Made by a program: the position numbers and the translations under genes. The notes under the pieces were generated by a model that searched no databases, was not told the DNA's origin, and saw nothing but the letters and a program-made list of their open reading frames with translations. Source: an uncultured Dehalococcoidaceae bacterium (GTDB taxonomy: Bacteria; Chloroflexota; Dehalococcoidia; Dehalococcoidales; RBG-16-60-22). Taken from it: DNA of 64,000 nucleotides. Each line of letters starts with the position of its first letter. Position 1 is the first letter of the stretch. The stretch spans positions 10,934 through 74,933 of the forward strand of contig CAZCOB010000007.1 in the NCBI GenBank assembly GCA_964500415.1, read 5' to 3'. Below, one piece after another: positions 18,466-35,178 of the stretch.

Positions 18466-18495
18466 TCGTTTCTGTCTAATTAAGATGCGAGGCTT

Positions 18496-19194
18496 CTATG
18501 GCACGTCGGTGGCTATGAAGTAGCCCACGCCGGGGATAGTCTGGATATACTTGGGGTTCTTGGGGTCGGGTTCCAGCTTCCGGCGTAGTCGGCCCACGAA
18601 CACGCGCAGGTACTCCTTCTCCGATGAGTATTCGCTGCCCCAGACGCTCTGTAAAAGCATACTGTGGGTGAGGACTTTATCCGAGTTCACCGCCAGGTGT
18701 TGCAGCAGCGAATACTCGGTGGGAGTAAGCGTTATCTCATTGCCGTTGACGGTGACGCGCCTCTTGGCAAAGTTAATCTCCAGTCCGTCGCAGGCGAAGC
18801 TTGACTGTGCCGGCGCTGCGGTGGGGTCGCCGCGGTGTCGGAAAGCCGTCTTGATTCTCGCCATAAGCTCGGCAATGCCGAAGGGCTTGGTCAGATAATC
18901 GTCGGCGCCCAGCTCCAGGCATTTAACCTTGTCGTTTTCATCGCCGCGTGCGCTGAGGATAATGATAGGTACGTTTGACCATTCCCGGATACGCCGTACC
19001 ACTTCCACGCCGTCCACTTTGGGCATCATAAGGTCGAGTATTATCAGGTCGACGAAATCTCTCTGCACCGCTTCCAGCGATTCCTCGCCGTTGGTAGCGG
19101 TAATTACTTCGTAGCCGCGTGCCTTGAGATTCGTACTGAGCAGTCTCAATATCGCCGGGTCATCATCTACGATGAGCAAGTTTTTCTTATCCAT
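18496..19194 (-). CDS. OmpR-family response regulator (REC + winged-helix DNA-binding domain)
   Basis: The start is reassigned to the ATG at 19194 (AAGGGGGA RBS), because the track start at 19311 overlaps the upstream kinase. Motifs MDKKNLLIVDDDP...LIILDLMMP...DDYLTKPF. C-terminus LTPTEYSLLQHL...YIQTIPGVGY. Confidence 0.9.
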   Translation of the reverse strand: MDKKNLLIVDDDPAILRLLSTNLKARGYEVITATNGEESLEAVQRDFVDLIILDLMMPKVDGVEVVRRIREWSNVPIIILSARGDENDKVKCLELGADDYLTKPFGIAELMARIKTAFRHRGDPTAAPAQSSFACDGLEINFAKRRVTVNGNEITLTPTEYSLLQHLAVNSDKVLTHSMLLQSVWGSEYSSEKEYLRVFVGRLRRKLEPDPKNPKYIQTIPGVGYFIATDVP

Positions 19195-19207
19195 AGTCGT
19201 TCCCCCT

Positions 19208-20827: not shown

Positions 20828-21575
20828 CTACTCTCCTGGAATGACGTTTCTTTTTTCTTATGTTGCTTACTATTTTGGCGGCTTCGGCAGGGTCGAACGG
20901 TTTGTAAAGGCAGGTAATCGCCGCAGCTTCCTGGGCCTTGTCCAGGGCGTCTTTGACTTCGTTACGGAATCCGGTCATCATTACTGTCAGGATGTCCGGG
21001 TTGATTTCCTTCAGGCGCAGCAGGGTTTCCAGACCGTCTATATTAGGCAGCTTTACATCTATAAAAGCCATCTGGAGCTCCTTTTCCTGAGCTATGGTAA
21101 CCGCCTCTTCGCCGCTACACGCCGTCAATACGTTGTATCCCTGCTGTTTCAGCACCTTGGTCAGGGTATCGCAGATATCGGCATCGTCATCAATGACGAG
21201 AATCGGCTGGTTGCCGGCTGCCGCTTCAATCATTTCTATCAATTTGTCTATTTTTATCGGTTTCTGGATGATTTTATGAGCACCCTCATCCCTGGCTATC
21301 TGAATCAGGCCCTCATCGGAATAGGCTGTCATCAGGATTATCGAGGCTTCGGGTTGCGCCTCCTTTATTTTCCGGAAAGCTTCCACGCCGTTCATCTCCG
21401 GCATAACGATATCCATTAGCGTGACGTCGAAATCATGTTCTTTAAACTTATCTACGGCGGATACCCCGTTACTCGCGGTTTCCACAGTAAAACCACGCCG
21501 TCTCAAAATCATCGCGAAGGTCTCCAGCAAATCCTCGTTATCGTCAACGACCAGAATCGTCGCTTCTTCGTTCAT
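20817..21575 (-). CDS. Tandem-receiver (REC-REC) response regulator without output domain
   Basis: 252 aa. REC1: ILVVDDNEDL...VTLMDIVMPEMNG...IIQKPI. REC2: ILVIDDDADI...MAFIDVKLPNIDG...CLYKPF. Both have canonical phospho-acceptor residues. Confidence 0.85.
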   Translation of the reverse strand: MNEEATILVVDDNEDLLETFAMILRRRGFTVETASNGVSAVDKFKEHDFDVTLMDIVMPEMNGVEAFRKIKEAQPEASIILMTAYSDEGLIQIARDEGAHKIIQKPIKIDKLIEMIEAAAGNQPILVIDDDADICDTLTKVLKQQGYNVLTACSGEEAVTIAQEKELQMAFIDVKLPNIDGLETLLRLKEINPDILTVMMTGFRNEVKDALDKAQEAAAITCLYKPFDPAEAAKIVSNIRKKKRHSRRVDEG

Positions 21576-21582
21576 TTCAGGT

Positions 21583-23085
21583 CTATCTCCTTTTCTCTAG
21601 CGGTAGCTTCACAATGAAGGTGGTGCCCTGGTCTACCTTACTGGTGATTTCAATTTTACCTCCGTTTTGCTCGACGAGCCTCTTGGTAATGGCCAGCCCC
21701 AGTCCGATGCCTTTAGGTTTGGTGGTGAAGAGAGGCTCGAATATCTTTTCGAAATTCCCTTCGGGGATGCCGCAGCCGTTGTCATGGAACTTTATCCAGA
21801 CGATGTCGCTCTCTTCGCCGGTATCGATGTCCAGTTTCCCAGCTTTCCCGTTCATGGCCTGTATGGCATTGGAAATGATATTGGTGAAGACACGGCTTAT
21901 CTGCTCGGCGTCGGTCCTGACCTTCGTGGGGTGACCGTTTAGATTGGCATTGACGGTGACGTGTTCCGGTACGGTTATCCATGACAGGCTTTCGGTGATG
22001 AGATTTTTAAGGTCGACCCTGTCCGGCGATGGAGGTGTGATGCGGGTGAAATCAAGCAGGTCGGTGACGATTTTATTAGCTATGTCAATCTGCTTGTCCA
22101 GGACTTTCAAGGTATTTACTGCCTCTTCGTCACCTTTATCCGTAAGGGCTATGTTCAGCAGGTAAGCGCAGTTCCTGATAACGTTGAGGGGATTGCGGAG
22201 TTCGTGACCGACGCCCGAGGCAAGCTCGCCTACGGCGGCCAGCCTTTCGGAGCGGATAAGTTTTTCCTGCACCTGTTCCAGGTCTTTCGTCCGGCTCTCG
22301 ACCTCGTCCTCCAGCTGTTCATAGTAACACTGGAGAGACTGCTCCAGCTCCATCTGGCGTATGGCACCGCCGATTCTCTCGACGAGTGTCTTGGTCAGGT
22401 GGCTCCTTTTCTTCAGGTAAGGATTATCACGGTATGAATATATCTCCACCAGACCCATCGTTTCGCCGCTGACGACTAGATTCTCGGATATTTTACTGGA
22501 AGATTTGTGGAAGTTGTTGCTCTTGAAGACACGGTCGTGAAAGGTGATTCTAACCTTGGTTTCTTCGGGATACTGCATCGCCTGAGGTACGATATTCACC
22601 ACCACCGACAGGAACTCGTCAACGGAGTCGCTTTCCTCCACCGCCTTACCGATATCATAGACGCATTTCATCTCCTTCATCCCCAGCCGGTGCTGCAGTT
22701 CGCTTCTCTGCAATAAGGCCACTGTGGAGCCGACGGCGCTGAGGATGATGAAAAAGGCTGTAGGTTTGAACAGTGCATTCGGGTAAGTATCGATAAGTAT
22801 GGCATGAGGCAGGAAAATTAGCATAGCGATAAGGCCGGACATTATCGCTGGTATTACCCCGAGAACATAAGCGGTGTAAACTACCGGTGCGAAGAATATC
22901 AGCCCCAGGAAGTCGATACCGTAAAAATTATGAAGGGTGTTGAGGGAGTTCTCCAGCGATGTCCAGCCGAAAAAGCCTCCGATAACGGGCAGATAGTAAA
23001 CAATGGAACAAAACACCGTGATGGCTATGATGTACCTCAGGTGTATGTTCGTCCACCATCTCTTCTTATTACGTCTGTGACTCAT
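21583..23085 (-). CDS. Membrane sensor histidine kinase (multi-pass N-terminus, HisKA + HATPase_c)
   Basis: 500 aa with a GGGAGG RBS. About 4-5 hydrophobic helices in the first ~125 aa. H-box GHELRNPLNVI. ATPase motifs NAIQAM and GIGLGLAI. Confidence 0.85.
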   Translation of the reverse strand: MSHRRNKKRWWTNIHLRYIIAITVFCSIVYYLPVIGGFFGWTSLENSLNTLHNFYGIDFLGLIFFAPVVYTAYVLGVIPAIMSGLIAMLIFLPHAILIDTYPNALFKPTAFFIILSAVGSTVALLQRSELQHRLGMKEMKCVYDIGKAVEESDSVDEFLSVVVNIVPQAMQYPEETKVRITFHDRVFKSNNFHKSSSKISENLVVSGETMGLVEIYSYRDNPYLKKRSHLTKTLVERIGGAIRQMELEQSLQCYYEQLEDEVESRTKDLEQVQEKLIRSERLAAVGELASGVGHELRNPLNVIRNCAYLLNIALTDKGDEEAVNTLKVLDKQIDIANKIVTDLLDFTRITPPSPDRVDLKNLITESLSWITVPEHVTVNANLNGHPTKVRTDAEQISRVFTNIISNAIQAMNGKAGKLDIDTGEESDIVWIKFHDNGCGIPEGNFEKIFEPLFTTKPKGIGLGLAITKRLVEQNGGKIEITSKVDQGTTFIVKLPLEKRR

Positions 23086-23298: not shown

Positions 23299-23847
23299 TT
23301 AGCTTTGTTGCCATTCCTTTATTATGCCCTTGATTTCGTTAAGGTCATCTATCAGTTCCTCGGATGTAACCTCCGGCAGCGCATTGATGAGGTTAGCCAG
23401 TGGATTTTCTTCCTCCTCATCGTCACTAAAAAGCGAATTGATGGAATCATCGCCGGTATCCTCTTCCACCTTTACTTCTTTCTCTCCTTCTGCCGGTGGA
23501 GTGCTTCCCAGCGCAAGCTCGACCACCTTGATATCCTCACCACCCTCTTCAAGGGGGGGTACATCTTCATCGATATCATCTATCTCGGTCAGTTTATCTT
23601 CCGGCTCGATAGTTAGCTCATCTATTGGCCCGTGAGGCCCTACCGGGGTAGCCTCGTCTTCAGTAGTGGTGGCGGTTTCTTTTGAGAGTTCCTGTAGTTC
23701 CTGTGTTGTTTCCTCGAGGTTCTTGGTTCTGCCGTTGATTTTTTCTTCCATCTCGGCAATTTGTTCGGCGGTATTATCTTCCGCTGTGCCGTTGTTTTTC
23801 CCCAGTTTTTCTTTTAATTTGCCTATGTTGAAACTTTTTATGCGCAT
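23299..23847 (-). CDS. Highly acidic hypothetical protein, last gene of the archaellum cluster
   Basis: 182 aa, D/E/T-rich. The C-terminal NPLANLINALPEVTSEELIDDLNEIKGIIKEW resembles the MLANLINWV... block of the ArlD/E-like protein. Lies 57 nt after arlI. Confidence 0.55.
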   Translation of the reverse strand: MRIKSFNIGKLKEKLGKNNGTAEDNTAEQIAEMEEKINGRTKNLEETTQELQELSKETATTTEDEATPVGPHGPIDELTIEPEDKLTEIDDIDEDVPPLEEGGEDIKVVELALGSTPPAEGEKEVKVEEDTGDDSINSLFSDDEEEENPLANLINALPEVTSEELIDDLNEIKGIIKEWQQS

Positions 23848-23904
23848 TTATAACCTCCTTGAAGGCAGGCTACCGTAAGTCTGCCATGCTGGCAATCCCC
23901 GTTA

Positions 23905-25710
23905 TTAACGGAAAAGACCGTCCCGGTATGCCTTGGATAATATCGCGTAAACATCGTAAAAATCGGTTTTACCCTGCTCGCTCATACGCCTCAGGACATC
24001 GGACCTTTGCTTCAGCAGCTTGTATATCTGCCTTCTCTTCTCTTCCGGGAGGCCGCGCCTGGGAGCTATTTTATTCTCCAGCAGGTATGAGTTCTGGAAA
24101 CCCCGGAACAGGAAAGAGTCGTCCAGCGGGTTCCAGTTGAAAGTCTCGATGAAAGAAAAAGAGTCGCCCACCGAATCGTAGCTGACGATTTCATTAACGC
24201 TGGTTATTTTCCGGGCAAGGCCGCCGTTGGCCAGCCGGACCTGCTGGCAGATAACGACGACGTTAAGGTTGTCCACGTATGTCTTGGGTACGCTGATGGG
24301 GACGCCGGTAACACGCTGGATGAGCTTGGATACAGAGGCGGCGTGGAAGGTGCTCATAGTTGCATGACCGGTTTGCATGGCCTGGAAGGCGATAGCGCCT
24401 TCGGCACCACGAATCTCACCGACAATGATAAGGTTGGGCCTCTGCCGCAGGGCAGCCTTGAGAAGGTCGAACATGGATACCTCGGAGGAGTCGCCCCCTT
24501 TATCGGAACCGCGGGTAACCCCGCGAATCCAGTTATGGTGCGGCACCTGGACTTCCGGGGTATCTTCGATGCTTACTATCTTGGCATCGGGGGGAATAAA
24601 GGTAGTGAGAGCGTTCAGCAGGGTAGTTTTACCGGAGGCCGTTTCCCCGGATACCCAGACATTCATACCTTCTTGGAGTATGATGGAGAGATAGGCGGCC
24701 ATATCGAAGCTCAGCATGCCGAACTGGATAAGCTCCAGTATGCTCAGCGGTGTGTCGCTGAACTTCCTGATGGTAAAATTGCTGCCCCGCTTGGAAACAT
24801 CGGTGCCGTAGACGATATTAATACGTGAGCCGTCGGGCAGAGTAGCATCGACAACCGGTTCGCGGAAGGTGACCGGGTGCTTGATGCCCTCGGCAAGCTC
24901 GATGACGAATTTATCCAGCGCCTCGTTGGTCTCGAATCCGATGCTTGCCCTGAGACCGCCGAAAATTTTATGCTCCACAAAGATATTACCGAGGCCGGAA
25001 CACGAAATATCTTCGATGTTGGGGTCAAGTATCATGGGGTCCAAGAGACCCATACCTTCCAGCTTACGCCGTAGCAGATACCGGAGGCTGTTGTACTGGA
25101 ACCTGGTTATCTGTATCTTTCCTTTGGAGCTACTTTTAGAATTAAAGAAAGGAATGTTTTTCCCTTTCTTATTTTGTTTATCATCTTTTTTATCACCTTC
25201 AGCGCTCTTGGTTTCATCAGGTTTCGGTGCTTTAGTTTTATAACCGCTAATAGAAACAACTCTATCGACGATTCCCATTATTATTTCAAGCCGTTTTCTG
25301 GAGTCGGCTACACCCTCAAGCTCTTCAACATAGTCGGCAAGGCGCAGTTCTATCTCGTCGAGTGTGCTGTCCTGGGCGTCGATGAGACTCGGTTCCACGG
25401 CGACATAGTAGTCCCTGACGTCCTCGGGGTTGGCCATGACATGAACGAATACCCCGCCGCCGACATCATAGATAAGGTTGGGGTTTTTAGTACCCTTGAG
25501 TGCCCGCGTTATTTTCTCATAGTACTGCGGGATTTCGAATTTATCCTCCGGAAGCATACGCAGGTACTGGAGGAGGTGCGGGTTATTTTTGCATACCTCC
25601 TGGAAATCAGGCGGGAGTTTCCCGAACATCGGGCACTTTTCCAGGGCGGCCCCGCATTCCTTCCCGCATTCCCCGGGGCACTGTTTTATTTCAAATGGCA
25701 GACGAAGCAT
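23905..25710 (-). CDS. arlI: Archaellum motor ATPase ArlI (FlaI), secretion-ATPase superfamily
   Basis: 601 aa. Walker A VSGETASGKTTLLNAL, followed by LIIVGEIRGAEG and the TGHATMSTFHA His-box region. Sits beside arlH and arlJ. Has an N-terminal CPGECGKECGAALEKC motif and a Lys-rich insert. Confidence 0.85.
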   Translation of the reverse strand: MLRLPFEIKQCPGECGKECGAALEKCPMFGKLPPDFQEVCKNNPHLLQYLRMLPEDKFEIPQYYEKITRALKGTKNPNLIYDVGGGVFVHVMANPEDVRDYYVAVEPSLIDAQDSTLDEIELRLADYVEELEGVADSRKRLEIIMGIVDRVVSISGYKTKAPKPDETKSAEGDKKDDKQNKKGKNIPFFNSKSSSKGKIQITRFQYNSLRYLLRRKLEGMGLLDPMILDPNIEDISCSGLGNIFVEHKIFGGLRASIGFETNEALDKFVIELAEGIKHPVTFREPVVDATLPDGSRINIVYGTDVSKRGSNFTIRKFSDTPLSILELIQFGMLSFDMAAYLSIILQEGMNVWVSGETASGKTTLLNALTTFIPPDAKIVSIEDTPEVQVPHHNWIRGVTRGSDKGGDSSEVSMFDLLKAALRQRPNLIIVGEIRGAEGAIAFQAMQTGHATMSTFHAASVSKLIQRVTGVPISVPKTYVDNLNVVVICQQVRLANGGLARKITSVNEIVSYDSVGDSFSFIETFNWNPLDDSFLFRGFQNSYLLENKIAPRRGLPEEKRRQIYKLLKQRSDVLRRMSEQGKTDFYDVYAILSKAYRDGLFR

Positions 25711-25718
25711 CTAATCTC

Positions 25719-26432
25719 CTAGACTCTAGCCTTGGCAAGCGGTATTATCCTCATGCCCATCTTGGGTTCTATATCGAAACTGACCACATCCCCGGTAGGG
25801 CGCTCGGCGCCGCGTACCTTGAGTACCTCCATAAGTTTAATCATGCTGTCGCCAACCTGCTCCAGGCGCAATCTAAAACGTGCATCGCATAACGAGCGGG
25901 TCCGGGCGAGCAAATCTTCTTCAAAAGCATATGAATGCGCTACCAGGATTATTGTTTTACCTTCGTCACATAAGCCTTTACATCTGGAAAAGAAATCGAT
26001 AATGGCCACCGGATTGCTATGCGCCACGAGCAGGGTGATAGAGTCCACTATTATCAGTTTAAATTCCTGCGGCTGTTGTGAAAAATGGTGAGTCAGCACG
26101 TAAAACGGTTTCTGCCCGCCCTGCATACTACTGTGAAAGGTCAGCGGGTAGACGCGCAGGTGGTCCGCCAGGAAATGGTCAAGTACGCTCATTGCCAGCG
26201 ATTCCATCTGGCTTATCAGGCTTCTAACGCTGTTTTCCGTAGTATAGTAAGCTACCGAGATTTCGCCGGTAACCAGGGTGCCGTTGGTCAGATGCTGGCA
26301 CAGGACGCTTTTACCGGCATCGGAGTGGCCTTCGATGAGGCACAGAGAACCGAGCGGAATACCGCCGCCCAGCTTCTCATCAACCTCCGGTACTCCGGTA
26401 ATTATAAACTCCTTTTTCTTCTGTGTCGCCAT
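25719..26432 (-). CDS. arlH: ArlH (FlaH), KaiC/RecA-like ATP-binding archaellum protein
   Basis: 237 aa. Motifs GGGIPLGSLCLIEGHSDAGKSVL (Walker A) and LIIVDSIT (Walker B-like). Size and position next to arlI match ArlH. Confidence 0.8.
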   Translation of the reverse strand: MATQKKKEFIITGVPEVDEKLGGGIPLGSLCLIEGHSDAGKSVLCQHLTNGTLVTGEISVAYYTTENSVRSLISQMESLAMSVLDHFLADHLRVYPLTFHSSMQGGQKPFYVLTHHFSQQPQEFKLIIVDSITLLVAHSNPVAIIDFFSRCKGLCDEGKTIILVAHSYAFEEDLLARTRSLCDARFRLRLEQVGDSMIKLMEVLKVRGAERPTGDVVSFDIEPKMGMRIIPLAKARV

Positions 26433-26463
26433 TATCAGTCACCTCTCTCTTGTGCGGGGATTT

Positions 26464-27513
26464 TCATTTTTTACGCTTTTTAGGAGGGTCATCTTTGCTC
26501 TCCTCGGGATTGAGGTCAATGCAAAACTCCTTGCTCTTGCCGTCACCATTCGGGAAGACGAGTTTCAGTTTTACCGGGGACTCTTTATTCTTGTCTACCT
26601 CTATTATCTCTTCTTCCTCGGTCAGTTCCGCCTCGCTGCTGGACTCGCTCCAGGAAGGGCTTACCGGATGGAGCGGCGCATCGCCACCCGTCAGGATTCC
26701 GTGCAGTAAAAGCATAGTCTGGCTCCAGACCTCGGCGTTATTGGCGACTTCCGGATGCTCTGCTGATATTTCTGAAAGGTGTATAATGAGTTCCTTCAAT
26801 TCGGGAGTCAGGTGCCCGCTGATACCATAGACCTCGAGGAAGGTAGTCAACTGTTCCTGGCCTATTTCTTTCTTGGCTCTGGCAACCCAGTTAATTAAAT
26901 TGGCCAGCATGTTAACCTTCGGTATTGCTGATTCTGCTTCAACAGCAGTAATTTTTTCATAGTCCACAGGTTGTTCCTCCTCTGCGGGTATCTCTGATTG
27001 AGGTGAGGTGATTTCACCTTGTTCATCAAGCTCATCGGATTCACCGATTTCGTCAGGTTCGCTGAATTCTTCGCCTTCAAAAGCATCTTCCGGAACAAGT
27101 TGCGAATCATCGGAAGGAAGGTCTTCTTCCTGACCGATTGAGTCATCTTCTGAGAGCATTTCGGTTTCTTCCCTGAGCGGTTTTTCCATGTCGAGCAGGT
27201 CTTCATCTTCGGGGGGTGTTTCCAAATCATCTTCGACTTGCTCCTCGGTGGTTTCCTTCGTAGTTTCCACCTCTTCCGCTCCCTGGGCAGCGGCTTCGGC
27301 AGCTTTATTACCCAGGGCATTAGCGATGCTGCCGTCGATGGTTACTTTCTGGTTGCCGTCACTACCGAGAGCCGCCAGAATAGTGGAAAATTCCGATGAA
27401 GGCAATTCCATGTTAAGCAGGTAGTCCCGGACGCTGGCCAGTGACTGCTTTATTTCCCCCTTCAACAGCTTAATATCATCTTGGAGAGTTTCAACTTTTT
27501 TTTCTTCTGCCAT
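26464..27513 (-). CDS. Acidic protein with ArlD/ArlE-like C-terminal block (candidate archaellum switch/cytoplasmic ring component)
   Basis: 349 aa with an N-terminal coiled coil and a long D/E-rich linker. The block NLINWVARAKKEIGQEQLTTFLEVYGISGHLTPELKELI resembles, from memory, the W..fL....G.....L.yY..iGWIs..v signature of archaeal FlaD/E. Confidence 0.5.
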   Translation of the reverse strand: MAEEKKVETLQDDIKLLKGEIKQSLASVRDYLLNMELPSSEFSTILAALGSDGNQKVTIDGSIANALGNKAAEAAAQGAEEVETTKETTEEQVEDDLETPPEDEDLLDMEKPLREETEMLSEDDSIGQEEDLPSDDSQLVPEDAFEGEEFSEPDEIGESDELDEQGEITSPQSEIPAEEEQPVDYEKITAVEAESAIPKVNMLANLINWVARAKKEIGQEQLTTFLEVYGISGHLTPELKELIIHLSEISAEHPEVANNAEVWSQTMLLLHGILTGGDAPLHPVSPSWSESSSEAELTEEEEIIEVDKNKESPVKLKLVFPNGDGKSKEFCIDLNPEESKDDPPKKRKK

Positions 27514-27721: not shown

Positions 27722-29230
27722 TTATATTTGGGAAACAGATGTAAATAAAGAATTGGCTAAAGCCGGCAGGATGACCAGGGCCAGGCCGGAAATAGTTGCG
27801 GTAATTGCAAAATTACTTAATACTTTATATTTGCTGCCACCGTCCGCCAGAGTGGGCACGATAGCATTGGCTACCGTAAATATAAGGACCAGCGGCAATA
27901 CCATCTGGTGCATCAGCTCAAGCCCGGAGAGATTGAAGCTGCTAAGAGAGCTGAAGGAAGGTGCTCCAGACGTCGTGGGCATCGTCTCCTGGGCTTTGCT
28001 TACCATGCCGCCAAAAGACGTGATAACCTCCGTAATGAATACCAGTATAATAACGACGCAAGTGTGCATGGTGACGCAGAGCCAGCGGAATGGACCGGTT
28101 ATCGTCCTTCGCTTTGCCCTGAGCAATGCAATCCTGTTGGCGAAGGAAGCGGCATGCTGGCCGGCCTGGCCTGCCGAGCCGCCCACTTCAATGGCATCGT
28201 AGAACATGCTTACGCTGCGGTGAGTCAGTTCGCTTCCAGTCTCGTCGATGAATACCTTCCAGGATAGCTTAGGCTTGATACCGGCGGTGAGTCTCGTGTG
28301 CAGATTTTTTACCGAGCTCCTCAGCACGTTGATGGCATCAAGGTCGAGCCGGCTCAGTGCGGCATTCACCGTCGTACCCAGGGCGGTACAGACACCGCCC
28401 AGTGAACGCAGGAAAGTCCCTACTTCATCATCCCTCTTGGTTACTTTATGGTCGTCGCGCATCATGATAAAGCCTATGGGAAAGACCAGCCCCGCGACTA
28501 CTAAAAGCGCTAAACCCAGGTTCTGCCCGGTTAATAAAAAGAGGGCGCCGATGCCGACGGCAATCGGCAGAAAGAATTTTACAAGCTTGCTGGCCAGCTT
28601 TTGTTCCTTGGAACCTGACCAGCGCAAGACCATCTTCTCTTTGGGCGAGATCAGCCAGATAAGCCAGACACCGACGGTGGTAGTACCAATAGCGATGAAT
28701 GCCATAGCTATAATCAGCGAAGTTTCGATTTTCCATATCATGGTGGATACTATCCCGATGACTATTACCAGTACCGCCGAAAGGATGAGGGAGATATAGG
28801 CATCTGTCCACATTTTCAGGCCTTCCAGGCTTCTCGTATATTCGTTTTCGTAATCCTCGGCGCGGGCATGGGCTTCTCTCATAAGAAAATCGGCCTCGGG
28901 TTCGCCGGAGATGAGCGAACTGGAGAAGCGGAGAAGTAGACCTTTCACGTCCTCTTCTTTAAGTGGTTCTCCTACCGCACGGCAGGCCCGGGCATAATCG
29001 TATTTCAAACGTTTGCGGGCTAACTCGACTCTTTTAAAATATTCCGCAGAGGAACACTGAAGCTCGGCGGAGCGTTCGAAAATCTGGTCGCGCGGCACGC
29101 CGGCGGCGGCGATGGCGGACATGTATGATAGCTGGTAAAACATGTCAAAACTCATCAGGCGGTTGGTCTTGTTCTTGCTCTTACCCTTTTCGCCTTTTCT
29201 AAATATCAGTTGTTTTAACTTTTCCAGCAT
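27722..29230 (-). CDS. arlJ: ArlJ (FlaJ), polytopic membrane platform protein (T2SS-F-like)
   Basis: 502 aa. A soluble N-terminal region is followed by at least 7 hydrophobic helices (e.g. YISLILSAVLVIVIGIVSTMIW, LALLVVAGLVFPIGFIMM, FAITATISGLALVILPALA). Located within the archaellum cluster. Confidence 0.8.
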   Translation of the reverse strand: MLEKLKQLIFRKGEKGKSKNKTNRLMSFDMFYQLSYMSAIAAAGVPRDQIFERSAELQCSSAEYFKRVELARKRLKYDYARACRAVGEPLKEEDVKGLLLRFSSSLISGEPEADFLMREAHARAEDYENEYTRSLEGLKMWTDAYISLILSAVLVIVIGIVSTMIWKIETSLIIAMAFIAIGTTTVGVWLIWLISPKEKMVLRWSGSKEQKLASKLVKFFLPIAVGIGALFLLTGQNLGLALLVVAGLVFPIGFIMMRDDHKVTKRDDEVGTFLRSLGGVCTALGTTVNAALSRLDLDAINVLRSSVKNLHTRLTAGIKPKLSWKVFIDETGSELTHRSVSMFYDAIEVGGSAGQAGQHAASFANRIALLRAKRRTITGPFRWLCVTMHTCVVIILVFITEVITSFGGMVSKAQETMPTTSGAPSFSSLSSFNLSGLELMHQMVLPLVLIFTVANAIVPTLADGGSKYKVLSNFAITATISGLALVILPALANSLFTSVSQI

Positions 29231-29269: not shown

Positions 29270-30355
29270 TTAAGACCACTCGATTCCCTGTATTCTGGTC
29301 TGGCTGGTCTCTGGCAGGGAACCATCGTCCACTCTAAGCCTGATATAGCTGCTTCCACTCGGCCCGGGAAAGTCGGAGACGCCGTAATAAGCAATCTCCA
29401 GATAGTCGGTATTATCAACCACGGTATATCCCGGGAAACTGTAACTTGCCGAAATGTTTATCCAGAAATTGCGGGTATAAAAGCTAGCCGCAGCGACTTC
29501 GGTGTCGATGACCTCGCGGATAGTCCCGTCGGCTCTCCTGATAATAACGTCGATATTAAGCGAGGCATTCCACCAGGTTCCTGACACCCAGCCGTAAGCC
29601 CGGCCGCGATAGCGCACCGTCCAGGTGGATGCCGAAATTTCATTGACATTGGATAGGGGGAATAAGTGCCTGGCATACCTGGAATCATCATTGTCATCAT
29701 GGAGAAGCCATCGGCCTGTTACCCTGTTGCCGATACGGTCGGTTGTTTCCGTTACCGCAGAGCCGTCAGCCGGAGTCCATCCCTTGAGCATGAAGTAATC
29801 GATTCCAACAAGAGTGACAGTTTCCGTATGAGCCGTGAGTGTGGGCGGACCGCAGACGAGGGTAGGGGCGATACCGTTGGGAGTAACAATAGTCATTTTA
29901 ATCGCCCGGTAGCCGGCTATCGGTTCCAGAATTGCCCCCAAATCCAGTTGTTCTTCCGGGTTAAGTATATCCGGCTCGAAGGCTTCCGGTCCTCCGTTGA
30001 GAGAGATGCCCGTCTTGTACCACTGGTTTTCGGCCGGCGAGCCTTCCACGTAGGGCAGCCAGTTCACGTTGAAACTGTCGCTATCATCGTAGTACTCCAC
30101 GATGAAGTCCCATCTATCGAAACTCGCCAGTTTAACCTGACCGTTATTCTCAAATGTTGCCAGTAGCGTATCGTACGAAGGCAGGCTGGCATCGACCCCG
30201 ACCAAATCGGTTCTCATTATCTCTCCCTCTCTCAAGGCAATCCCCTCGACGCTGAGGGCGGTAGAGTCCGCCGAGGTGAGAATCCCCTGGGACAATGACA
30301 TGCCTCCTACTACTATCATCGCTATACAAATAATCGAGACGACGGCAGTCGCCAT
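29270..30355 (-). CDS. ArlF/ArlG-family protein with ~190-aa extra C-terminal domain
   Basis: 361 aa. aa 1-~170 are paralogous to the 174-aa neighbour (MATAVVSIICIAMIVVGGMSLSQG, RTDLVGVDASL, FDRWDFIVEYYD, VNWLPY, FEPDILNPEEQ). The remainder is a W/Y/T-rich, beta-looking domain with no recognisable match. Confidence 0.65.
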   Translation of the reverse strand: MATAVVSIICIAMIVVGGMSLSQGILTSADSTALSVEGIALREGEIMRTDLVGVDASLPSYDTLLATFENNGQVKLASFDRWDFIVEYYDDSDSFNVNWLPYVEGSPAENQWYKTGISLNGGPEAFEPDILNPEEQLDLGAILEPIAGYRAIKMTIVTPNGIAPTLVCGPPTLTAHTETVTLVGIDYFMLKGWTPADGSAVTETTDRIGNRVTGRWLLHDDNDDSRYARHLFPLSNVNEISASTWTVRYRGRAYGWVSGTWWNASLNIDVIIRRADGTIREVIDTEVAAASFYTRNFWINISASYSFPGYTVVDNTDYLEIAYYGVSDFPGPSGSSYIRLRVDDGSLPETSQTRIQGIEWS

Positions 30356-30416
30356 ATCATTCGCTCCTTAATAACTCTGGCGTTAGTATTAATTTATTCC
30401 TCCTGTTATCAAATCA

Positions 30417-30941
30417 TCAGGGCGAGAAATAGGTCGAAGCGGTAACCCCGCTGGGCGTAGAGATAATCACCATATTGGTGGTGCCGTATCCTACCGACGG
30501 ATAAAGCCAGGTTCTTATCATCATCTGCTCACCGGGATTTAATACGTTCGGTTCAAATATCTCTGGCTCTCCGTCCACCTGTATCCAGACCACTTCCCAC
30601 TCGTATGTCCCCGCTGTATCTTCATTGTAGGGTAGCCAGACTACATGATATTCGCTGCCCGTATCGTAATACTGGACGATGACATCCCATTTATCGAAAT
30701 CAGCCAGCTTAGTCTGGCCGGTGTTTTCCAGTACTATCTCCAGGGGGTCGGGGCCGGATGGAGTCGAAAGGCTGGTACTGATGGGCGTCAGTTCCGTCCT
30801 CATTATCGTTTCATCTCTCTGGCCTACCTCTTCGAGTCCCACCGTGCTGGCGTCAACCGACGTCATGAATCCCTGGGACATTGTCATACCGCCAAACACT
30901 ATCAAGGCTATACATATTATTGAGACAATAGCCGTCTCCAT
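30417..30941 (-). CDS. ArlF/ArlG-family archaellum stator-like protein
   Basis: 174 aa. N-terminal TM METAIVSIICIALIVFGGMTMSQG followed by a beta-rich domain (FDKWDVIVQYYD, VVWLPY, FEPNVLNPGEQ). Position after the archaellins matches arlF/arlG. Confidence 0.7.
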   Translation of the reverse strand: METAIVSIICIALIVFGGMTMSQGFMTSVDASTVGLEEVGQRDETIMRTELTPISTSLSTPSGPDPLEIVLENTGQTKLADFDKWDVIVQYYDTGSEYHVVWLPYNEDTAGTYEWEVVWIQVDGEPEIFEPNVLNPGEQMMIRTWLYPSVGYGTTNMVIISTPSGVTASTYFSP

Positions 30942-30953: not shown

Positions 30954-31430
30954 TTACATACTGAAGTAAAATTCATCAGATATACCGTTAGGAATAATGA
31001 ACTTAGAATAATAAGTCCCCGTGCCGGGGTCACTGGTATAACTTATGGTAATTTTTAAAGTGGCACTGGTCTGCCACTCGCTATCATTCTCTATATCAAA
31101 ATCCCATTGTGGATAAGCCCCCTCGGCATCCTCGTAGTAGGGGACATGGGTAAAGTTGTCCGATTGCCCGAAGAACAGGTCGCTCTCTTCAACGCTGACG
31201 ATGCGCTGGGTGCCCACGTTTTTTACCCAGAGGTAAACGTACAGGCGGTCGACGGAATTTGCCGCATGAACAATATTTATCCGACTCTTCATCCGTTCGT
31301 CAACCTGTTCGGCCATGCTGACCATGGCTTGGCTGGAACGGTTTATCATCGGATAAACACTATTAAAGACAAATATCATACACACAACTCCCGCTATTAT
31401 AAGTAGAGCTGTAGTAATGGCCTTGTCCAC
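30954..31430 (-). CDS. ArlF/ArlG-family archaellum stator-like protein
   Basis: 158 aa. GTG start with a GGAGG RBS 7 nt upstream. N-terminal TM AITTALLIIAGVVCMIFVF followed by LYVYLWVKNVGTQRI..., typical of FlaG/FlaF-type proteins. Confidence 0.65.
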   Translation of the reverse strand: MDKAITTALLIIAGVVCMIFVFNSVYPMINRSSQAMVSMAEQVDERMKSRINIVHAANSVDRLYVYLWVKNVGTQRIVSVEESDLFFGQSDNFTHVPYYEDAEGAYPQWDFDIENDSEWQTSATLKITISYTSDPGTGTYYSKFIIPNGISDEFYFSM

Positions 31431-31588: not shown

Positions 31589-32218
31589 CTAGCGCAGGTT
31601 CATGATAGTATCAATATACGGGGGTGTGGTGCGTTCAAGCGTAAGAACTGCACCCACAGGCGTCATGACTACGATACTGAAGGTAGTGTTAATGTTCAGG
31701 TCCGGGTTGAGAGCGTCACCAAGATGACCGGGCGTAGTTGCCGCACCTCCGATGGTTACCTGGAACTTTTCGTCGGCTTCCAGAAGGTCATCACCATCTT
31801 CTTTCCCCAGCTTGGCAACGGACCAGTAGAGGTTGTCCACTGTCTGCCCTTTATCAATGTAGTTGATGATTACCTTATTGGCGGTACCGGTGGCGGTTCC
31901 ATTCGAACCGTTCGTTGGCGGAGTGAAATCAACCGCTTCACCACCGAGTACGTTGGCTACGGTAAAGGTTAACTGGTGGATTCTACCGTTTGAACCTGAA
32001 GTGTTGGCAGTAGCAATCATCGAACCCCTGAGCTCCATAGTGCTCTGTGCTTCCTTCAGTCCGGAATATACGGCCTCCTGGCTCTTCTGTGTGGTGAAAA
32101 GCCCAGCCGATAATGCCGTATAGGCGAAGACCGCGGCTACCACGACGAAAGCAATCAGGATGATAGCGGTCTCCAGACCGGTAATACCTTTCTCGCGTCT
32201 TAGAAATTTTTTAAGCAT
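31589..32218 (-). CDS. arlB: Archaellin (ArlB/FlaB family)
   Basis: 209 aa. Class III signal peptide plus hydrophobic N-terminus MLKKFLRREKG/ITGLETAIILIAFVVVAAVFAYTALSAGLFTTQKSQE. C-terminus ...LERTTPPYIDTIMNLR. Confidence 0.9.
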   Translation of the reverse strand: MLKKFLRREKGITGLETAIILIAFVVVAAVFAYTALSAGLFTTQKSQEAVYSGLKEAQSTMELRGSMIATANTSGSNGRIHQLTFTVANVLGGEAVDFTPPTNGSNGTATGTANKVIINYIDKGQTVDNLYWSVAKLGKEDGDDLLEADEKFQVTIGGAATTPGHLGDALNPDLNINTTFSIVVMTPVGAVLTLERTTPPYIDTIMNLR

Positions 32219-32253: not shown

Positions 32254-32907
32254 CTAGCGTAGGTTCATGATGGTATCGACGTAGGCAGGCGTGGTGCGCT
32301 CAATATTCAGCACGGCACCATGAGGGGTAACTACTTCCAGGGTAAAGGTAGTATTGGGCCCCAGCTCATTACCGGAAAGGGCATCGAGAAGGTTGCCGCC
32401 ACCCGTACCGTTATCAGTGTTGCCGATGGATATCTGGAATTTCTCGTTGGTCTCCAGCAGGTCGTCGCCATCGGTGCTGCCAAGCTCCGATTTAGTCCAG
32501 TAAAGATTGTCGGCAGTCTGGTTCTTATCGATGTAGTTGATAACTACCTTGTTGGTGGCGCTGGTTCCGGTTAGAGCCAATCCGTCGTCACTGCCAGATA
32601 CAGTCGGTATAGTGAAATCGATCTCTTCACCACCGAGCACGTTGGCAACGACGAATGTTATCTGCGCTACGGTGCCGGAAGCACCGGTGTCCCCGGCTGT
32701 AGCAATAATGGGACCCCTGAGTTCAAGAGTGCTCCTGGCTTCTTCTAGCGCGGAATAGACTGCTTCCTGGGCCTTCTGTGTGGAGAACAGGCCGGCTGAA
32801 AGTGCCGTGTAGGCGAAGACCGCGGCTACCACCACGAACGCAATCAGGATGATGGCGGTCTCCAGGCCGGTGATACCTTTCTCATGATTCATGAATTTCT
32901 TTAACAT
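32254..32907 (-). CDS. arlB: Archaellin (ArlB/FlaB family)
   Basis: 217 aa. N-terminus MLKKFMNHEKG/ITGLETAIILIAFVVVAAVFAYTALSAGLFSTQKAQE. Close paralog of 31589..32218. Confidence 0.9.
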   Translation of the reverse strand: MLKKFMNHEKGITGLETAIILIAFVVVAAVFAYTALSAGLFSTQKAQEAVYSALEEARSTLELRGPIIATAGDTGASGTVAQITFVVANVLGGEEIDFTIPTVSGSDDGLALTGTSATNKVVINYIDKNQTADNLYWTKSELGSTDGDDLLETNEKFQISIGNTDNGTGGGNLLDALSGNELGPNTTFTLEVVTPHGAVLNIERTTPAYVDTIMNLR

Positions 32908-33105: not shown

Positions 33106-33444
33106 TTAACCGGGTAACACCGCCTTCTCAAGATTGGAGTAAACCAGTTCGTAAATATTATGGTCAGGCGGGCGGATGCTATCGGAGGTGCCGCCTGGCT
33201 TTGAAAATTCTGCTGCATCTGGCAGTAGCGGTACTTCAAGATCGTATTTTTCCGGCTGGCTGGAGAATATATCGTTAACAGCGGGAATCTGCGACAGGAC
33301 TACCACCAATACCGTACCTGCTATAAAGGCACAAGCCATCCTCAAGCGGGTGGTAATATCTTTACTCTCTTTTACCCATTTGGTTATATTTCTAATAACT
33401 TCCCGCATCTTTATATATCTGCTGACGTATAATTCTGATTCCAT
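33106..33444 (-). CDS. Hypothetical single-pass membrane protein inserted between archaellin genes
   Basis: 112 aa. The start lies 3 nt after the upstream archaellin stop, suggesting translational coupling. One TM helix, ACAFIAGTVLVVVLSQIPAV. No family recognised. Confidence 0.45.
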   Translation of the reverse strand: MESELYVSRYIKMREVIRNITKWVKESKDITTRLRMACAFIAGTVLVVVLSQIPAVNDIFSSQPEKYDLEVPLLPDAAEFSKPGGTSDSIRPPDHNIYELVYSNLEKAVLPG

Positions 33445-33447
33445 TGA

Positions 33448-34047
33448 TTAATAAAGGTTGACAATCTGGTCGACCCTGGCGGGGATAGTTCGCTCGAGAA
33501 CGAGTACGGCACCCACGGGCGGTTTCACTTCCAGTTGAAACTTATGATACGGACCCGGTTTCTGTTCGTCACTGACATTTTCGCTGACACAGGTCAGGTC
33601 GACCGTAATCATGAATAACTCGTTCCTATCAAGCAGGTTATCGGTGGTGTCCGTGTTCAGCTTATCCATCGTCCAGTTAACCGATGGGATTATCTGGTAG
33701 GCGTCGCTATAGGTGATAACAACCTTGTTGGAAGAATTAGCCGAGGAAGTATCGGTGAAGTCTATCATATCGCCTCCAGTGGTGGTGGCCAGGGTGAAAC
33801 ATACTTCCGTCAGTATGCTGTCCGTCATTCTCCCGTACATATTGCCTTTTACCTCTATGGTACTTTTGGCTTCATCCAGGCCGGAGTGGATGGCCTCCTT
33901 GGCTTTCTGGGTGGAAAACAGGCCGGCCGAAAGAGCGACGTAGGCAAACACCGATGCTACGATGACGAAAGCGATGAGAATAATGGCTGTTTCTATCCCG
34001 GTGATGCCTCGCTGGTCCCTGAATACACGTTTTACAAATCTATACAT
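33448..34047 (-). CDS. arlB: Archaellin (ArlB/FlaB family), divergent copy
   Basis: 199 aa with a GGGGAGGAAG RBS. N-terminus MYRFVKRVFRDQRG/ITGIETAIILIAFVIVASVFAYVALSAGLFSTQKAKE. The variable domain differs from the other two copies. Confidence 0.9.
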   Translation of the reverse strand: MYRFVKRVFRDQRGITGIETAIILIAFVIVASVFAYVALSAGLFSTQKAKEAIHSGLDEAKSTIEVKGNMYGRMTDSILTEVCFTLATTTGGDMIDFTDTSSANSSNKVVITYSDAYQIIPSVNWTMDKLNTDTTDNLLDRNELFMITVDLTCVSENVSDEQKPGPYHKFQLEVKPPVGAVLVLERTIPARVDQIVNLY

Positions 34048-34446: not shown

Positions 34447-35178
34447 ATGATTCAGGAAAAGCCAGAAGCCGTAAGTCTATATATAGTAGAAGAGCAGGAA
34501 ATCTACCGGGAAATGTACAGTTATATCCTTCCGAACCGGGCAAATGTTGAAATACTGAGAATCTCTGGAAACAGTGATATAGAATCTATGGGGCGGGCGG
34601 TATCTGAGCTTGTTCCTGACGTTTTAATATTGAGTGTCAAGAAGCTTGATTCGGGAATTATTGAAGAACTGGAGCGAATCAGGAATGACTATCCCAGGAT
34701 GGGGATAATTATTTTAATCATATTTTACAGCTCGCAGGATATTGAACTGCTGCGCCGGCTGGCCCTCAGTGGAGAGAGCGGTATGGCGCTTTTTTTGAAA
34801 CAATCCCTGGACAAGGTAGACCAGCTGTGCCAGTTTATTATGGCGGTCAGCCAGGGGCAGGTTATCCTCGACCCGCCATTGGCGACTTTCATGTTCGCCG
34901 GAAAGCCGGAGTGCCCCTTCCTGAAACAGCTCACCACCCGCGAACTGGAAATTCTTAGCCTTCTCTCGCAGGGATACACCAACTCGGCCATCGCTGAAAC
35001 CCTCTTTATCGATATCAAGACCGTCGAACATCACCTGAACAGTATGTACAGCAAGCTCAAGGCAGACCCCGATTATAATTCGAAACACCTGAGAGTAAGC
35101 GCCGCCCGGCTTTACCTGGAAACGATGGGCACGCTATACCCGAAAGAAGAACCTCTGGCACGCGTTGCGGGACACTGA
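34447..35178 (+). CDS. NarL/LuxR-family regulator with atypical (non-phosphorylatable-looking) receiver domain
   Basis: 243 aa. C-terminal LuxR HTH LTTRELEILSLLSQGYTNSAIAETLFIDIKTVEHHLNSMYSKL. The receiver aligns by eye to NarL, but it has EE for the acidic pair and S at the phospho-Asp position (DVLILSV). Confidence 0.75.
   Translation: MIQEKPEAVSLYIVEEQEIYREMYSYILPNRANVEILRISGNSDIESMGRAVSELVPDVLILSVKKLDSGIIEELERIRNDYPRMGIIILIIFYSSQDIELLRRLALSGESGMALFLKQSLDKVDQLCQFIMAVSQGQVILDPPLATFMFAGKPECPFLKQLTTRELEILSLLSQGYTNSAIAETLFIDIKTVEHHLNSMYSKLKADPDYNSKHLRVSAARLYLETMGTLYPKEEPLARVAGH

What the first reader, a model, noticed from the sequence alone, without database searches (positions are those of the whole stretch)
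29270..30941. Third ArlF/G-family paralog with a ~190-aa novel C-terminal domain
Archaea normally have one ArlF and one ArlG; here there are three such genes. The 174-aa and 361-aa proteins are clear paralogs over the first ~170 aa: they share the TM helix and the RT(E/D)L, FD(K/R)WD.IV(Q/E)YYD, V.WLPY and FEP.(V/I)LNP(G/E)EQ blocks. The longer one continues into an aromatic-rich, beta-looking domain (…WTVRYRGRAYGWVSGTWWNASLNIDVII…YLEIAYYGVSDFPGPSGSSYIRLRVDDGS…). In archaea ArlF/G anchor the motor to the S-layer. In a bacterial envelope an extra domain could supply a new anchor, for example to peptidoglycan or a sheath. That role is speculation.
Basis: inference. Interest (0 to 1): 0.65.

Follow-up and report, generated by a model that had tools for sequence, protein, structure and literature searches.

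The report
Second ArlF stator protein with jelly-roll tip
In a Dehalococcoidia bacterium that carries an archaeal-type swimming motor, a duplicated copy of the motor's wall-anchoring protein (ArlF) has gained an extra, unannotated beta-sandwich domain, making it a concrete candidate for how this archaeal motor is fixed to a bacterial cell envelope.

Summary
On the minus strand lies a complete archaellum operon: arlB x3, arlG (158 aa), arlF (174 aa), a 361-aa gene, arlJ, an arlCDE-like gene, arlH and arlI. Residues 1-170 of the 361-aa protein are an ArlF paralog, 45% identical to the 174-aa ArlF (E 4e-49) and with a FlaF fold. Residues 171-361 form a confidently predicted all-beta jelly-roll domain (pLDDT 95.5) with no Pfam, NCBIfam, PHROG or PDB sequence match.

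It is not a fusion artefact. Thirty-seven species-level Dehalococcoidia loci carry it. The order is arlG-arlF-arlF(long)-arlJ in all 32 loci whose upstream region is on the contig.

The domain is not unique to this protein. It belongs to a mobile extracellular module family that also occurs in PKD/DUF11 surface proteins, Bathyarchaeia pilin-like proteins, viral fibre-like proteins and 660-2300-aa SAR202 ArlF-like proteins. Anaerolineae independently attached Cadherin_3 repeats to ArlF.

The best explanation is that the protein is a stator cap subunit whose added tip binds the lineage-specific outer envelope layer. This is inferred, not shown. Published work mentions only an arlF duplication. 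I rate it a new variant of a known kind, with moderately high interest.

The parts
29270..30355 (-). arlF2, the long ArlF paralog of 361 aa (the target gene; the stop codon is included)
   Evidence: ORF. It is 45% identical to the 174-aa ArlF and belongs to a conserved family.
29846..30355 (-). Residues 1-170: an N-terminal hydrophobic helix followed by an ArlF/FlaF Ig-like beta-sandwich
   Evidence: AF2 predicts a helix at residues 2-46 followed by beta strands. The family profile hits PDB FlaF 4p94 at E 9e-4. Foldseek matches 4p94 at E 1.7e-8 with TM 0.72-0.81. PF22201 is found in 27 of 37 family members.
29273..29845 (-). Residues 171-361: an unannotated jelly-roll beta-sandwich domain with the conserved motifs H-x-E, FPL-G, W-V-YR, IDI-IR-ADGT-R, YTVVD-TDYLEI and RIDD
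   Evidence: AF2 gives pLDDT 95.5 and pTM 0.92 with 13 strands. There is no Pfam, NCBIfam, PHROG or PDB sequence hit. Foldseek finds only jelly-roll analogues in the PDB. BFVD tail-fibre-type proteins match at TM 0.64-0.70. It is the only copy in the window.
30364..30369 (-). Shine-Dalgarno AAGGAG, 8 nt upstream of the arlF2 ATG
   Evidence: Read directly from the sequence.
30417..30941 (-). arlF, the short canonical ArlF of 174 aa
   Evidence: PDB FlaF at E 8.9e-5. PF22201 and PF01917 match just below the Pfam cut-off. NCBIfam ArlF at E 1e-3.
30954..31430 (-). arlG (158 aa)
   Evidence: PDB FlaG 5tug at E 3.2e-5. NCBIfam ArlG and ArlF both give weak hits. The position matches the arl2 order arlG-arlF (PMC12488501).
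31589..34047 (-). Three archaellin genes (arlB at 33448-34047, 32254-32907 and 31589-32218) plus a small conserved ORF at 33106-33444
   Evidence: PF01917 at E 1e-24 and TIGR02537 for the 31589-32218 archaellin. The other two are called archaellins from their homologous N-termini in the ORF list. The small ORF is conserved in several related loci.
27722..29230 (-). arlJ, the platform protein, immediately downstream of arlF2
   Evidence: NCBIfam ArlJ at E 9.5e-119. FL is followed by arlJ in 37 of 37 loci.
23299..27513 (-). The rest of the operon: an acidic ArlCDE-like gene (26464-27513), arlH (25719-26432), arlI (23905-25710) and an acidic 182-aa gene (23299-23847)
   Evidence: NCBIfam FlaH at E 5e-75 and FlaI at E 1.6e-198. 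The arlCDE-like assignment is only an inference, based on position and on homology to the SAR202 899-aa protein. Synteny is shown.

Best explanation
The 361-aa protein is a second ArlF, the archaellum stator cap protein, kept alongside the ordinary ArlG and ArlF. Its N-terminal helix anchors it in the membrane or feeds it into the stator. Its ArlF beta-sandwich docks to ArlG or ArlF as in archaea, where an ArlF-capped ArlG filament reaches the S-layer. The added C-terminal jelly-roll sits at the outward end and binds the outer wall layer of Dehalococcoidia, most likely an S-layer-like protein or glycan coat. That contact gives the motor something rigid to push against.

Shown here: the paralogy, the two-domain architecture, strict operon linkage, conservation across the clade, and the extracellular, modular nature of the domain family. 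Inferred: membership of the stator complex, the outward orientation of the domain, and what it binds.
For: 1. ArlF identity of residues 1-170 is supported.

2. The gene always lies between arlF and arlJ. The order G-F-FL held in 32 of 32 loci with an intact upstream region, and FL-J in 37 of 37. Both halves are under purifying selection, with mean pairwise identity 58% for the N-terminal half and 51% for the C-terminal half.

3. A second Dehalococcoidia lineage, SAR202, keeps a 670-aa ArlF-like protein with the same jelly-roll directly next to its arlB-arlCDE-arlG-arlF-arlH-arlI-arlJ operon.

4. Anaerolineae independently extended their single ArlF with 1-2 Cadherin_3 repeats (E 1e-39 to 1e-43). 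The C-terminus of ArlF is therefore a repeated site of extracellular-domain accretion in Chloroflexota.

5. The jelly-roll family is otherwise found behind signal peptides or pilin-like anchors in large PKD/DUF11/CARDB/Ig surface proteins and in viral fibre-like proteins. These are typical contexts for surface-binding modules.

6. The most variable segments are 201-210, 251-260, 291-300 and 321-340. The 251-260 loop is where homologues insert whole domains. Three of these loops (roughly 255-263, 292-298 and 328-335) should lie at one end of the sandwich, by hairpin topology read. That pattern is consistent with a lineage-tuned binding tip.

7. The established model is that ArlF binds the S-layer and that this contact is needed for motility (PMC8667602). 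How Chloroflexota lacking PilN/PilO anchor their archaella is stated to be unknown (PMC13319060).
Against: There is no experimental or co-folding evidence that the long ArlF joins the stator. The fold search gives no ligand-specific relative: the best solved structures reach only TM about 0.5. In the viral protein examined and in the PKD-type surface proteins scanned, the domain is N-terminal, which in tail fibres is often the attachment end rather than the receptor end. Closely related loci manage with one short ArlF (L036, L039, L040, L042-L045, L048-L050), and L047 has a second short ArlF without the domain, so the domain is not universally required. A satellite cluster of ArlG-like and ArlF-jelly-roll genes has no arlHIJ within the 17 kb held (L082), which shows that such proteins may act outside the motor.
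Confidence: 0.5

Rival explanations
1. The protein acts as a structural collar or spacer rather than a binder. The jelly-roll would oligomerise, as many TNF-like and tail-fibre jelly-rolls do. It would either lengthen the ArlG/ArlF stalk or build a ring around the filament exit, to span a thicker or differently spaced envelope.
For: Fold-level matches include trimeric jelly-rolls such as BclA, 4-1BBL and viral capsid or fibre proteins. The full-length model has a fairly high pTM of 0.79, and a strand runs on across the domain junction (166-168 into 172-182), which suggests a rigid two-domain rod.
Against: TM-scores to the trimeric folds are low, at 0.20-0.33. The variable loops and domain insertions at one end look more like a specificity surface than an oligomer interface.
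Confidence: 0.15
2. The protein is a neofunctionalised surface adhesin or receptor display protein. The ArlF-like half would only tether it, perhaps on an ArlG stalk, and the jelly-roll would bind external substrates, partner cells or particles. In that case it is co-expressed with the archaellum but is not part of torque generation.
For: Satellite clusters contain 2 ArlG-like and 3 ArlF-jelly-roll proteins of 749, 672 and 2338 aa. They carry DUF2341, TIG and LamG domains, lie next to an integrase, and have no arlHIJ within the 17 kb held. The same domain heads large adhesin-like PKD/DUF11 proteins. Sister loci are complete without the gene.
Against: The invariant position inside the operon between arlF and arlJ in 37 loci, and the adjacency to the SAR202 operon, argue for a motor-linked role. 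The compact 361-aa form has no further adhesin domains.
Confidence: 0.25
3. The long ORF is an assembly or sequencing fusion, or a decaying duplicate without function.
For: None was found. The only hint is that Pfam and NCBIfam give no hit to the 361-aa protein.
Against: The same architecture occurs in more than 120 protein clusters and in 37 species-level genomes from independent assemblies. Residues are invariant across both domains. The AF2 models are confident, and the gene has its own Shine-Dalgarno.
Confidence: 0.01

Closest known systems
ArlF (FlaF) of Sulfolobus acidocaldarius, PDB 4P94: the S-layer-binding cap of the ArlG stator filament
   Same: Both have an N-terminal hydrophobic helix without a prepilin cleavage motif and an Ig-like beta-sandwich (Foldseek E 1.7e-8, TM 0.72-0.81, 26-27% identity). 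The conserved strand WD-IV-YY aligns with FlaF ...SVIVQYY.... Both are encoded next to arlG in the archaellum operon.
   Different: This protein is twice as long, with a 191-aa jelly-roll fused to the C-terminus. It exists as a second copy beside a normal ArlF, in a bacterium. It scores below the NCBIfam ArlF cut-off.
Anaerolineae ArlF proteins with Cadherin_3 repeats (L053, L060 and L071 at 377-379 aa; L070 and L078 at 276-283 aa), found here
   Same: An ArlF domain is followed directly by extracellular beta domains, within a Chloroflexota archaellum operon.
   Different: The added domain is a different family (PF16184 cadherin-like, one or two copies). It sits on the only ArlF of the locus, not on a duplicate. 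These proteins form a separate clade in the N-domain tree, so the event was independent.
SAR202 / Chloroflexi 650-750-aa ArlF-like proteins (P0144, P0380 family)
   Same: They have an ArlF-like N-domain plus a homologous jelly-roll (36-41% identity in the C-terminal half). They are encoded beside the archaellum operon.
   Different: Their jelly-roll is split by an insertion of about 330 aa at the loop equivalent to residues 255-265. The gene is on the opposite strand or in satellite clusters, and some copies reach 2338 aa with DUF2341, TIG and LamG domains.
PilO-LysM / PilN scaffold proposed for Litorilinea aerophila (PMC13319060)
   Same: It addresses the same problem, namely fixing an archaeal motor in a Chloroflexota envelope by recruiting an envelope-binding domain.
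   Different: It uses different proteins and a different domain, and it targets peptidoglycan. That study found pilO with a LysM domain next to the archaellum genes in only 3 of 244 archaellated Chloroflexota (34 encode pilO and pilN). Here the adaptation is on the stator protein itself.
MotB/PomB C-terminal OmpA-like domain of the bacterial flagellar stator (analogy from general knowledge)
   Same: The logic is the same: a membrane-anchored stator subunit carries a C-terminal wall-binding domain so that torque can be generated.
   Different: There is no homology. The motor, fold and ligand are all different.

Membership tests
ArlF/FlaF archaellum stator protein | An Ig-like beta-sandwich soluble domain homologous to FlaF (PF22201; PDB 4P94) | tested here: met
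   The family profile hits 4p94 at E 9e-4. Foldseek gives E 1.7e-8 and TM 0.72-0.81. PF22201 matches in 27 of 37 family members, though each is below the gathering score, and the window protein itself gives no Pfam hit.
ArlF/FlaF archaellum stator protein | An N-terminal hydrophobic helix without a class III (prepilin) signal-peptide cleavage site | tested here: met
   The sequence starts MATAVVSIICIAMIVVGG with no charged leader or G/A cleavage motif, unlike the archaellins (…KGITGLETAI…). AF2 predicts a helix at residues 2-46.
ArlF/FlaF archaellum stator protein | Encoded in the archaellum operon adjacent to arlG | tested here: met
   The order is arlG-arlF-arlF2-arlJ in the window and in all 32 related loci with an intact upstream region.
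ArlF/FlaF archaellum stator protein | A single-domain protein of about 140-175 aa that reaches the NCBIfam ArlF equivalog score (110 bits; model length 137) | tested here: not met
   The protein is 361 aa with two domains, and NCBIfam gives no hit at E<=0.1. It is therefore an ArlF paralog or variant, not a canonical equivalog.
ArlF/FlaF archaellum stator protein | Binds the S-layer or envelope, forms a complex with ArlG, and is required for motility | not testable with these tools
   This is known for S. acidocaldarius (summarised in PMC8667602). No binding or multimer tool was available here.
ArlG/FlaG stator filament protein | Closest similarity to FlaG (PDB 5TUG/5TUH) | tested here: not met
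   FlaG ranks below FlaF for the long protein (Foldseek E 4.7e-5 against 1.7e-8). The separate 158-aa gene is the FlaG match.
Archaellin ArlB | A class III signal peptide and a PF01917 match above the cut-off | tested here: not met
   The 361-aa protein has no PF01917 hit and no cleavage motif. The three true archaellins lie upstream.
Carbohydrate-binding / galactose-binding-like jelly-roll modules | A jelly-roll beta-sandwich with sequence or close structural membership in a CBM family and a recognisable ligand site | tested here: inconclusive
   The fold is all-beta and its best structural matches are jelly-roll domains. The best solved matches are the CocE C-terminal domain at TM 0.46-0.55 and rmsd 6-10 A. 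The weak HMM hits to GH43 enzymes that also carry a CBM6 module (3c7e, 5a8c; E 0.15-0.7) fall outside the CBM by my reading of the positions and are not significant.
Unannotated 'HxE…YTVVDxTDYLEID…RIDD' jelly-roll module family (defined here) | Full-length homology to the domain found in PKD/DUF11 surface proteins, Bathyarchaeia pilin-like proteins and viral fibre-like proteins | tested here: met
   phmmer against 1.84 billion representatives found 196 hits at E<=1e-3 and 122 at E<=1e-10. Viral contigs match at 34-36% identity over residues 3-191. Bathyarchaeia names appear.

The most novel reading that the evidence does not exclude
The outward end of ArlF is a swappable envelope adaptor. Acquiring lineage-specific tip domains would then be the step that let a horizontally transferred archaeal rotary motor find a rigid anchor in bacterial envelopes. 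The tips seen here are a compact jelly-roll in this Dehalococcoidia clade, an insertion-bearing jelly-roll in SAR202, and cadherin-like repeats in Anaerolineae. A wilder corollary is that ArlG plus ArlF-jelly-roll sets without arlHIJ nearby (L082) build motor-independent surface stalks derived from the stator.
Probability: 0.3. Interest if true: 0.75.

Novelty: new variant of a known kind. Interest (0 to 1): 0.6.

Why it matters
The discovery of working archaella in Chloroflexota (2025) left one mechanical question open. A rotary motor needs a stator fixed to something rigid, and it is not known how that is achieved outside an archaeal S-layer. The 2026 follow-up proposes PilO-LysM for Litorilinea. 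It states that the anchoring mechanism in members that encode peptidoglycan synthesis but lack PilN/PilO is unknown.

This finding supplies a specific, widely conserved candidate on the stator itself. It also shows the same solution arising at least twice with different domains. The domain boundaries (residues 171-361) are directly usable for binding assays, co-folding and cryo-ET interpretation. In addition, the work defines an unannotated extracellular domain family shared by bacteria, archaea and viruses.

Tried and rejected
- **Sequence family searches.** Pfam, NCBIfam and PHROGs scans of the C-domain found nothing.
- **PDB profile searches.** Searches with the family alignment (A2) and a broad alignment (A3) gave only non-significant hits. 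The GH43 hits at E 0.15-0.7 share an 'ADGTI' strand motif, and one hit is a Fab heavy chain. I rejected all of them as chance.
- **Foldseek on the full-length model.** It was dominated by FlaF and by long, poor alignments to birnavirus VP2 (rmsd about 20 A). I therefore modelled the domain alone.
- **Promoter and terminator scan.** It found no more sites than shuffled sequence.
- **Naming the source organism.** Cluster look-ups gave no name for the identical protein. Taxonomy rests instead on 72-92% identical syntenic flanking genes in named Dehalococcoidia MAGs.
- **Limit of the genome scan.** It used N-domain peptide patterns, so it could not by itself exclude divergent archaeal ArlF proteins carrying the domain. 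The exhaustive protein search found none that I could recognise, but most hits are unnamed.
- **Tsai et al. 2020.** The paper is not held in the library.
- **Peptidoglycan-anchor idea.** I downgraded it because Dehalococcoidia and SAR202 are reported to lack peptidoglycan synthesis. However, another paper reports such genes in 235 of 244 archaellated Chloroflexota.
Full report
**What is in the window.** The minus strand between about 23.3 and 34.0 kb carries a complete archaellum operon. It contains three archaellins, at 33448-34047, 32254-32907 and 31589-32218; the last was scanned and gives PF01917 E 1e-24. These are followed by a 158-aa gene (30954-31430), a 174-aa gene (30417-30941) and the 361-aa target (29270-30355). 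Downstream come arlJ (27722-29230; NCBIfam E 9.5e-119), an acidic 349-aa protein, arlH (E 5e-75), arlI (E 1.6e-198, above the curated cut-off) and an acidic 182-aa protein. The 158-aa protein matches S. acidocaldarius FlaG in the PDB (E 3.2e-5), and the 174-aa protein matches FlaF (E 8.9e-5). This is the arl2-type order arlG-arlF that has been described for Chloroflexota (PMC12488501).

**Checking the observation.** The 361-aa protein aligns with the 174-aa ArlF over the whole length of the latter: 79/174 identical, E 4e-49. It has no detectable similarity to the 158-aa ArlG. The gene has its own AAGGAG ribosome-binding site 8 nt upstream of the ATG. A family profile of residues 1-170 hits FlaF 4P94 (E 9e-4). 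PF22201 (FlaF_Ig-like) is found in 27 of 37 family members. Foldseek on the AlphaFold2 model (pLDDT 88, pTM 0.79) puts FlaF first (E 1.7e-8, TM 0.72-0.81), with FlaG further down. The protein is therefore a second ArlF, not a third kind of stator protein. Residues 171-361, modelled alone from a 22-sequence alignment, give a very confident all-beta domain (pLDDT 95.5, pTM 0.92, 13 strands).

**Not an artefact, and bacterial.** A search of 5.8 billion proteins returned 241 relatives. The best 120 are almost all 343-391 aa, 45-71% identical and cover 93-100% of the query. Where a name exists it is Chloroflexota or Dehalococcoidales. In one genome per species (GTDB), the 80 best loci are all Chloroflexota, and full-length matches are confined to Dehalococcoidia-labelled MAGs.

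I re-annotated all loci by BLAST. Thirty-seven carry the long ArlF. In all 32 whose upstream region is on the contig the order is arlG, short arlF, long arlF. In all 37 the next gene is arlJ. Genes flanking the window's operon are 72-92% identical and syntenic with the same MAG loci. These are a LuxR-type regulator, an alcohol dehydrogenase, a histidine kinase and a molybdopterin oxidoreductase. The window therefore comes from this Dehalococcoidia lineage.

**History of the duplication.** Sister loci with the same rearranged order (arlB-G-F-J-cde-H-I) have only one short ArlF: L036, L039, L040, L042-L045 and L048-L050. L047 has a second short ArlF at the position of the long one. L052 and L055 have independently duplicated short copies.

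In a neighbour-joining tree of N-domains, all long-form N-domains are monophyletic. The only short sequence inside that clade is the contig-truncated second copy of L046. The second copy of L047 branches at their base, and the short ArlFs form the sister group. This fits one duplication followed by one domain gain. However, the tree is a quick distance tree without support values.

**What the C-terminal domain is.** It has no match in Pfam, NCBIfam, PHROGs or PDB sequences, even with family-wide profiles. By fold it is a jelly-roll sandwich. Solved structures match only at fold level: the CocE C-terminal domain at TM about 0.5, birnavirus VP2, and TNF-like or BclA domains at TM 0.2-0.3. Predicted viral proteins match better, at TM 0.64-0.70 and rmsd 3.0-3.8 A over about 190 columns. 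These are domains within large tail-fibre-type proteins carrying collagen repeats, peptidase S74 or intramolecular-chaperone domains.

An exhaustive phmmer search of 1.84 billion representatives found 196 homologues at E<=1e-3 and 122 at E<=1e-10. I mapped domains on the 220 hits pooled. Only 38 carry an ArlF-like N-domain, and 182 do not. The other carriers fall into four groups:
- proteins of 500-1750 aa with a signal peptide, the jelly-roll at the N-terminus, then PKD, DUF11, CARDB, SdrD-B, Ig or DUF2341 domains;
- proteins with archaeal class-III/pilin-like N-termini, one of them named Bathyarchaeia;
- standalone proteins of about 250 aa, one from a Bathyarchaeia MAG in a region of small unknown ORFs;
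- proteins on five IMG/VR viral contigs (34-36% identity over the whole domain). In L090, the one I examined, the domain heads a 917-aa repeat-rich fibre-like protein.

The closest non-ArlF relatives (45-51% identity) lie in bacterial contexts. The domain is thus a recruited, mobile extracellular module shared across domains of life. It is unannotated rather than unique.

**The wider pattern in Chloroflexota ArlF.** Two further observations raise the significance.

First, SAR202/Chloroflexi genomes encode ArlF-like proteins of 650-750 aa in which the same jelly-roll is split by an insertion of about 330 aa. In the SAR202-family contig L093 (encoding P0380, which NCBI names as from a SAR202 cluster bacterium) such a gene lies immediately beside a canonical arlB-arlCDE-arlG-arlF-arlH-arlI-arlJ operon. 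In L082, two ArlG-like genes and three ArlF-jelly-roll genes (749, 672 and 2338 aa) form a satellite cluster with no arlHIJ within the 17 kb held.

Second, some Anaerolineae have a single ArlF extended by one or two Cadherin_3 repeats (PF16184, E 1e-21 to 1e-43). These form their own clade. The C-terminus of ArlF has therefore gained extracellular beta domains at least twice independently.

**Mechanism.** In archaea the accepted working model is an ArlG filament capped by ArlF, which binds the S-layer, and that contact is required for motility (PMC8667602; PMC13319060). The long ArlF keeps the ArlF sandwich, including the WD-IV-YY strand that aligns with FlaF ...SVIVQYY.... From memory, I86 in that strand is a FlaF dimer-interface residue; this is a lead I did not test. 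The short ArlF is always retained.

The most economical reading is a stator cap that contains the long ArlF, possibly as a heterodimer with ArlF. Its jelly-roll would then contact the outer wall layer. Within the domain, the motifs ADGT-R, YTVVD-TDYLEI and RIDD are nearly invariant across the whole family. The most variable segments are 201-210, 251-260, 291-300 and 321-340. The 251-260 loop is the insertion site in the split homologues. Counting hairpins in the predicted strand order, loops 255-263, 292-298 and 328-335 fall at one end of the sandwich. That would suit a lineage-tuned binding tip. This last step is topological inference, because I could not inspect coordinates.

The likely target is an S-layer-like or glycan coat rather than peptidoglycan. 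SAR202 isolates and other Dehalococcoidia are reported to lack peptidoglycan synthesis and to show an S-layer-like layer (PMC10444878). Another study counts peptidoglycan genes in 235 of 244 archaellated Chloroflexota, so this remains open.

**Rivals.** A structural collar or spacer role, and an adhesin role independent of torque, both remain possible. The satellite cluster L082 and the sister loci that lack the gene argue that the domain is not a universal requirement. An artefact is excluded.

**Novelty.** The literature I could search mentions only 'duplication of arlF' in some Chloroflexota. It has nothing on an extension, either in the text or in the held supplements. It states that anchoring in Chloroflexota that encode peptidoglycan synthesis but lack PilN/PilO is unknown. 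I therefore rate this a new variant of a known kind, an ArlF stator protein with a recruited tip domain. Its interest is moderately high because it makes the anchoring question directly testable.

Noticed in passing
window 5393-7894 (-): An 833-aa Ala/Glu/Lys-rich, apparently coiled-coil protein with a C-terminal transmembrane anchor and no Pfam hit. It accounts for the odd composition of 6001-8000 (GC 0.578, AT skew -0.386).
   Followed up: partly
L053 8001-9134, L060 8001-9134, L071 432-1571, L070 7906-8736, L078 640-1491: Anaerolineae archaellum loci whose only ArlF carries one or two C-terminal Cadherin_3 (PF16184) repeats. This is an independent extension of ArlF with a different domain.
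   Followed up: yes
L082 3414-15997 (and L083): A satellite cluster in a SAR202-type Chloroflexota metagenome contig. It holds two ArlG-like genes (151 and 159 aa) and three ArlF-like genes (749, 672 and 2338 aa), each with the jelly-roll split by large insertions. The largest also carries DUF2341, TIG and LamG domains. The cluster lies next to a phage-type integrase and has no arlHIJ within the 17 kb held.
   Followed up: partly
L093 10001-12013 versus 12111-22013: A SAR202-family contig (the protein's cluster is named 'SAR202 cluster bacterium' by NCBI). A 670-aa ArlF-like protein with a split jelly-roll lies convergently next to a canonical arlB-arlCDE(899 aa)-arlG-arlF-arlH-arlI-arlJ operon.
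   Followed up: yes
L090 5986-8739; also L088, L089, L091, L092: IMG/VR viral contigs encode the same jelly-roll domain at 34-36% identity. In L090, the one I examined, it is the N-terminus of a 917-aa repeat-rich fibre-like protein, beside a 784-aa His/Thr-repeat protein.
   Followed up: partly
L084 73-822 (protein P0322) and the related P0302-P0323: A family of proteins of about 250 aa starting 'MDKPIAKLKLL…', made of the jelly-roll alone with no signal peptide. One comes from a Bathyarchaeia MAG, in a run of small ORFs with no Pfam hits, which may be a virus or mobile element. Longer relatives (up to 1345 aa) share the same N-terminus.
   Followed up: partly
window 23299-23847 (-) and 26464-27513 (-): Two very acidic proteins (182 and 349 aa) are conserved in the operon across the clade. 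Both ends of the 349-aa one are homologous to the 899-aa SAR202 protein at the arlCDE position. The 182-aa one has a positional counterpart, an acidic 199-aa protein, after arlJ in SAR202. Neither has a Pfam hit.
   Followed up: partly
window 19208-23085 (-) and 34447-35178 (+): Histidine kinases, a double-receiver response regulator and a LuxR-type response regulator flank the operon. The kinase at 21583-23085 and the LuxR-type regulator are syntenic with it in related MAGs at 74-87% identity. This suggests two-component control of archaellum expression.
   Followed up: no
window 33106-33444 (-): A small 112-aa ORF with one predicted hydrophobic helix lies between the first and second archaellin genes. 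It is conserved at the same place in L006, L007, L010, L020 and L035.
   Followed up: no
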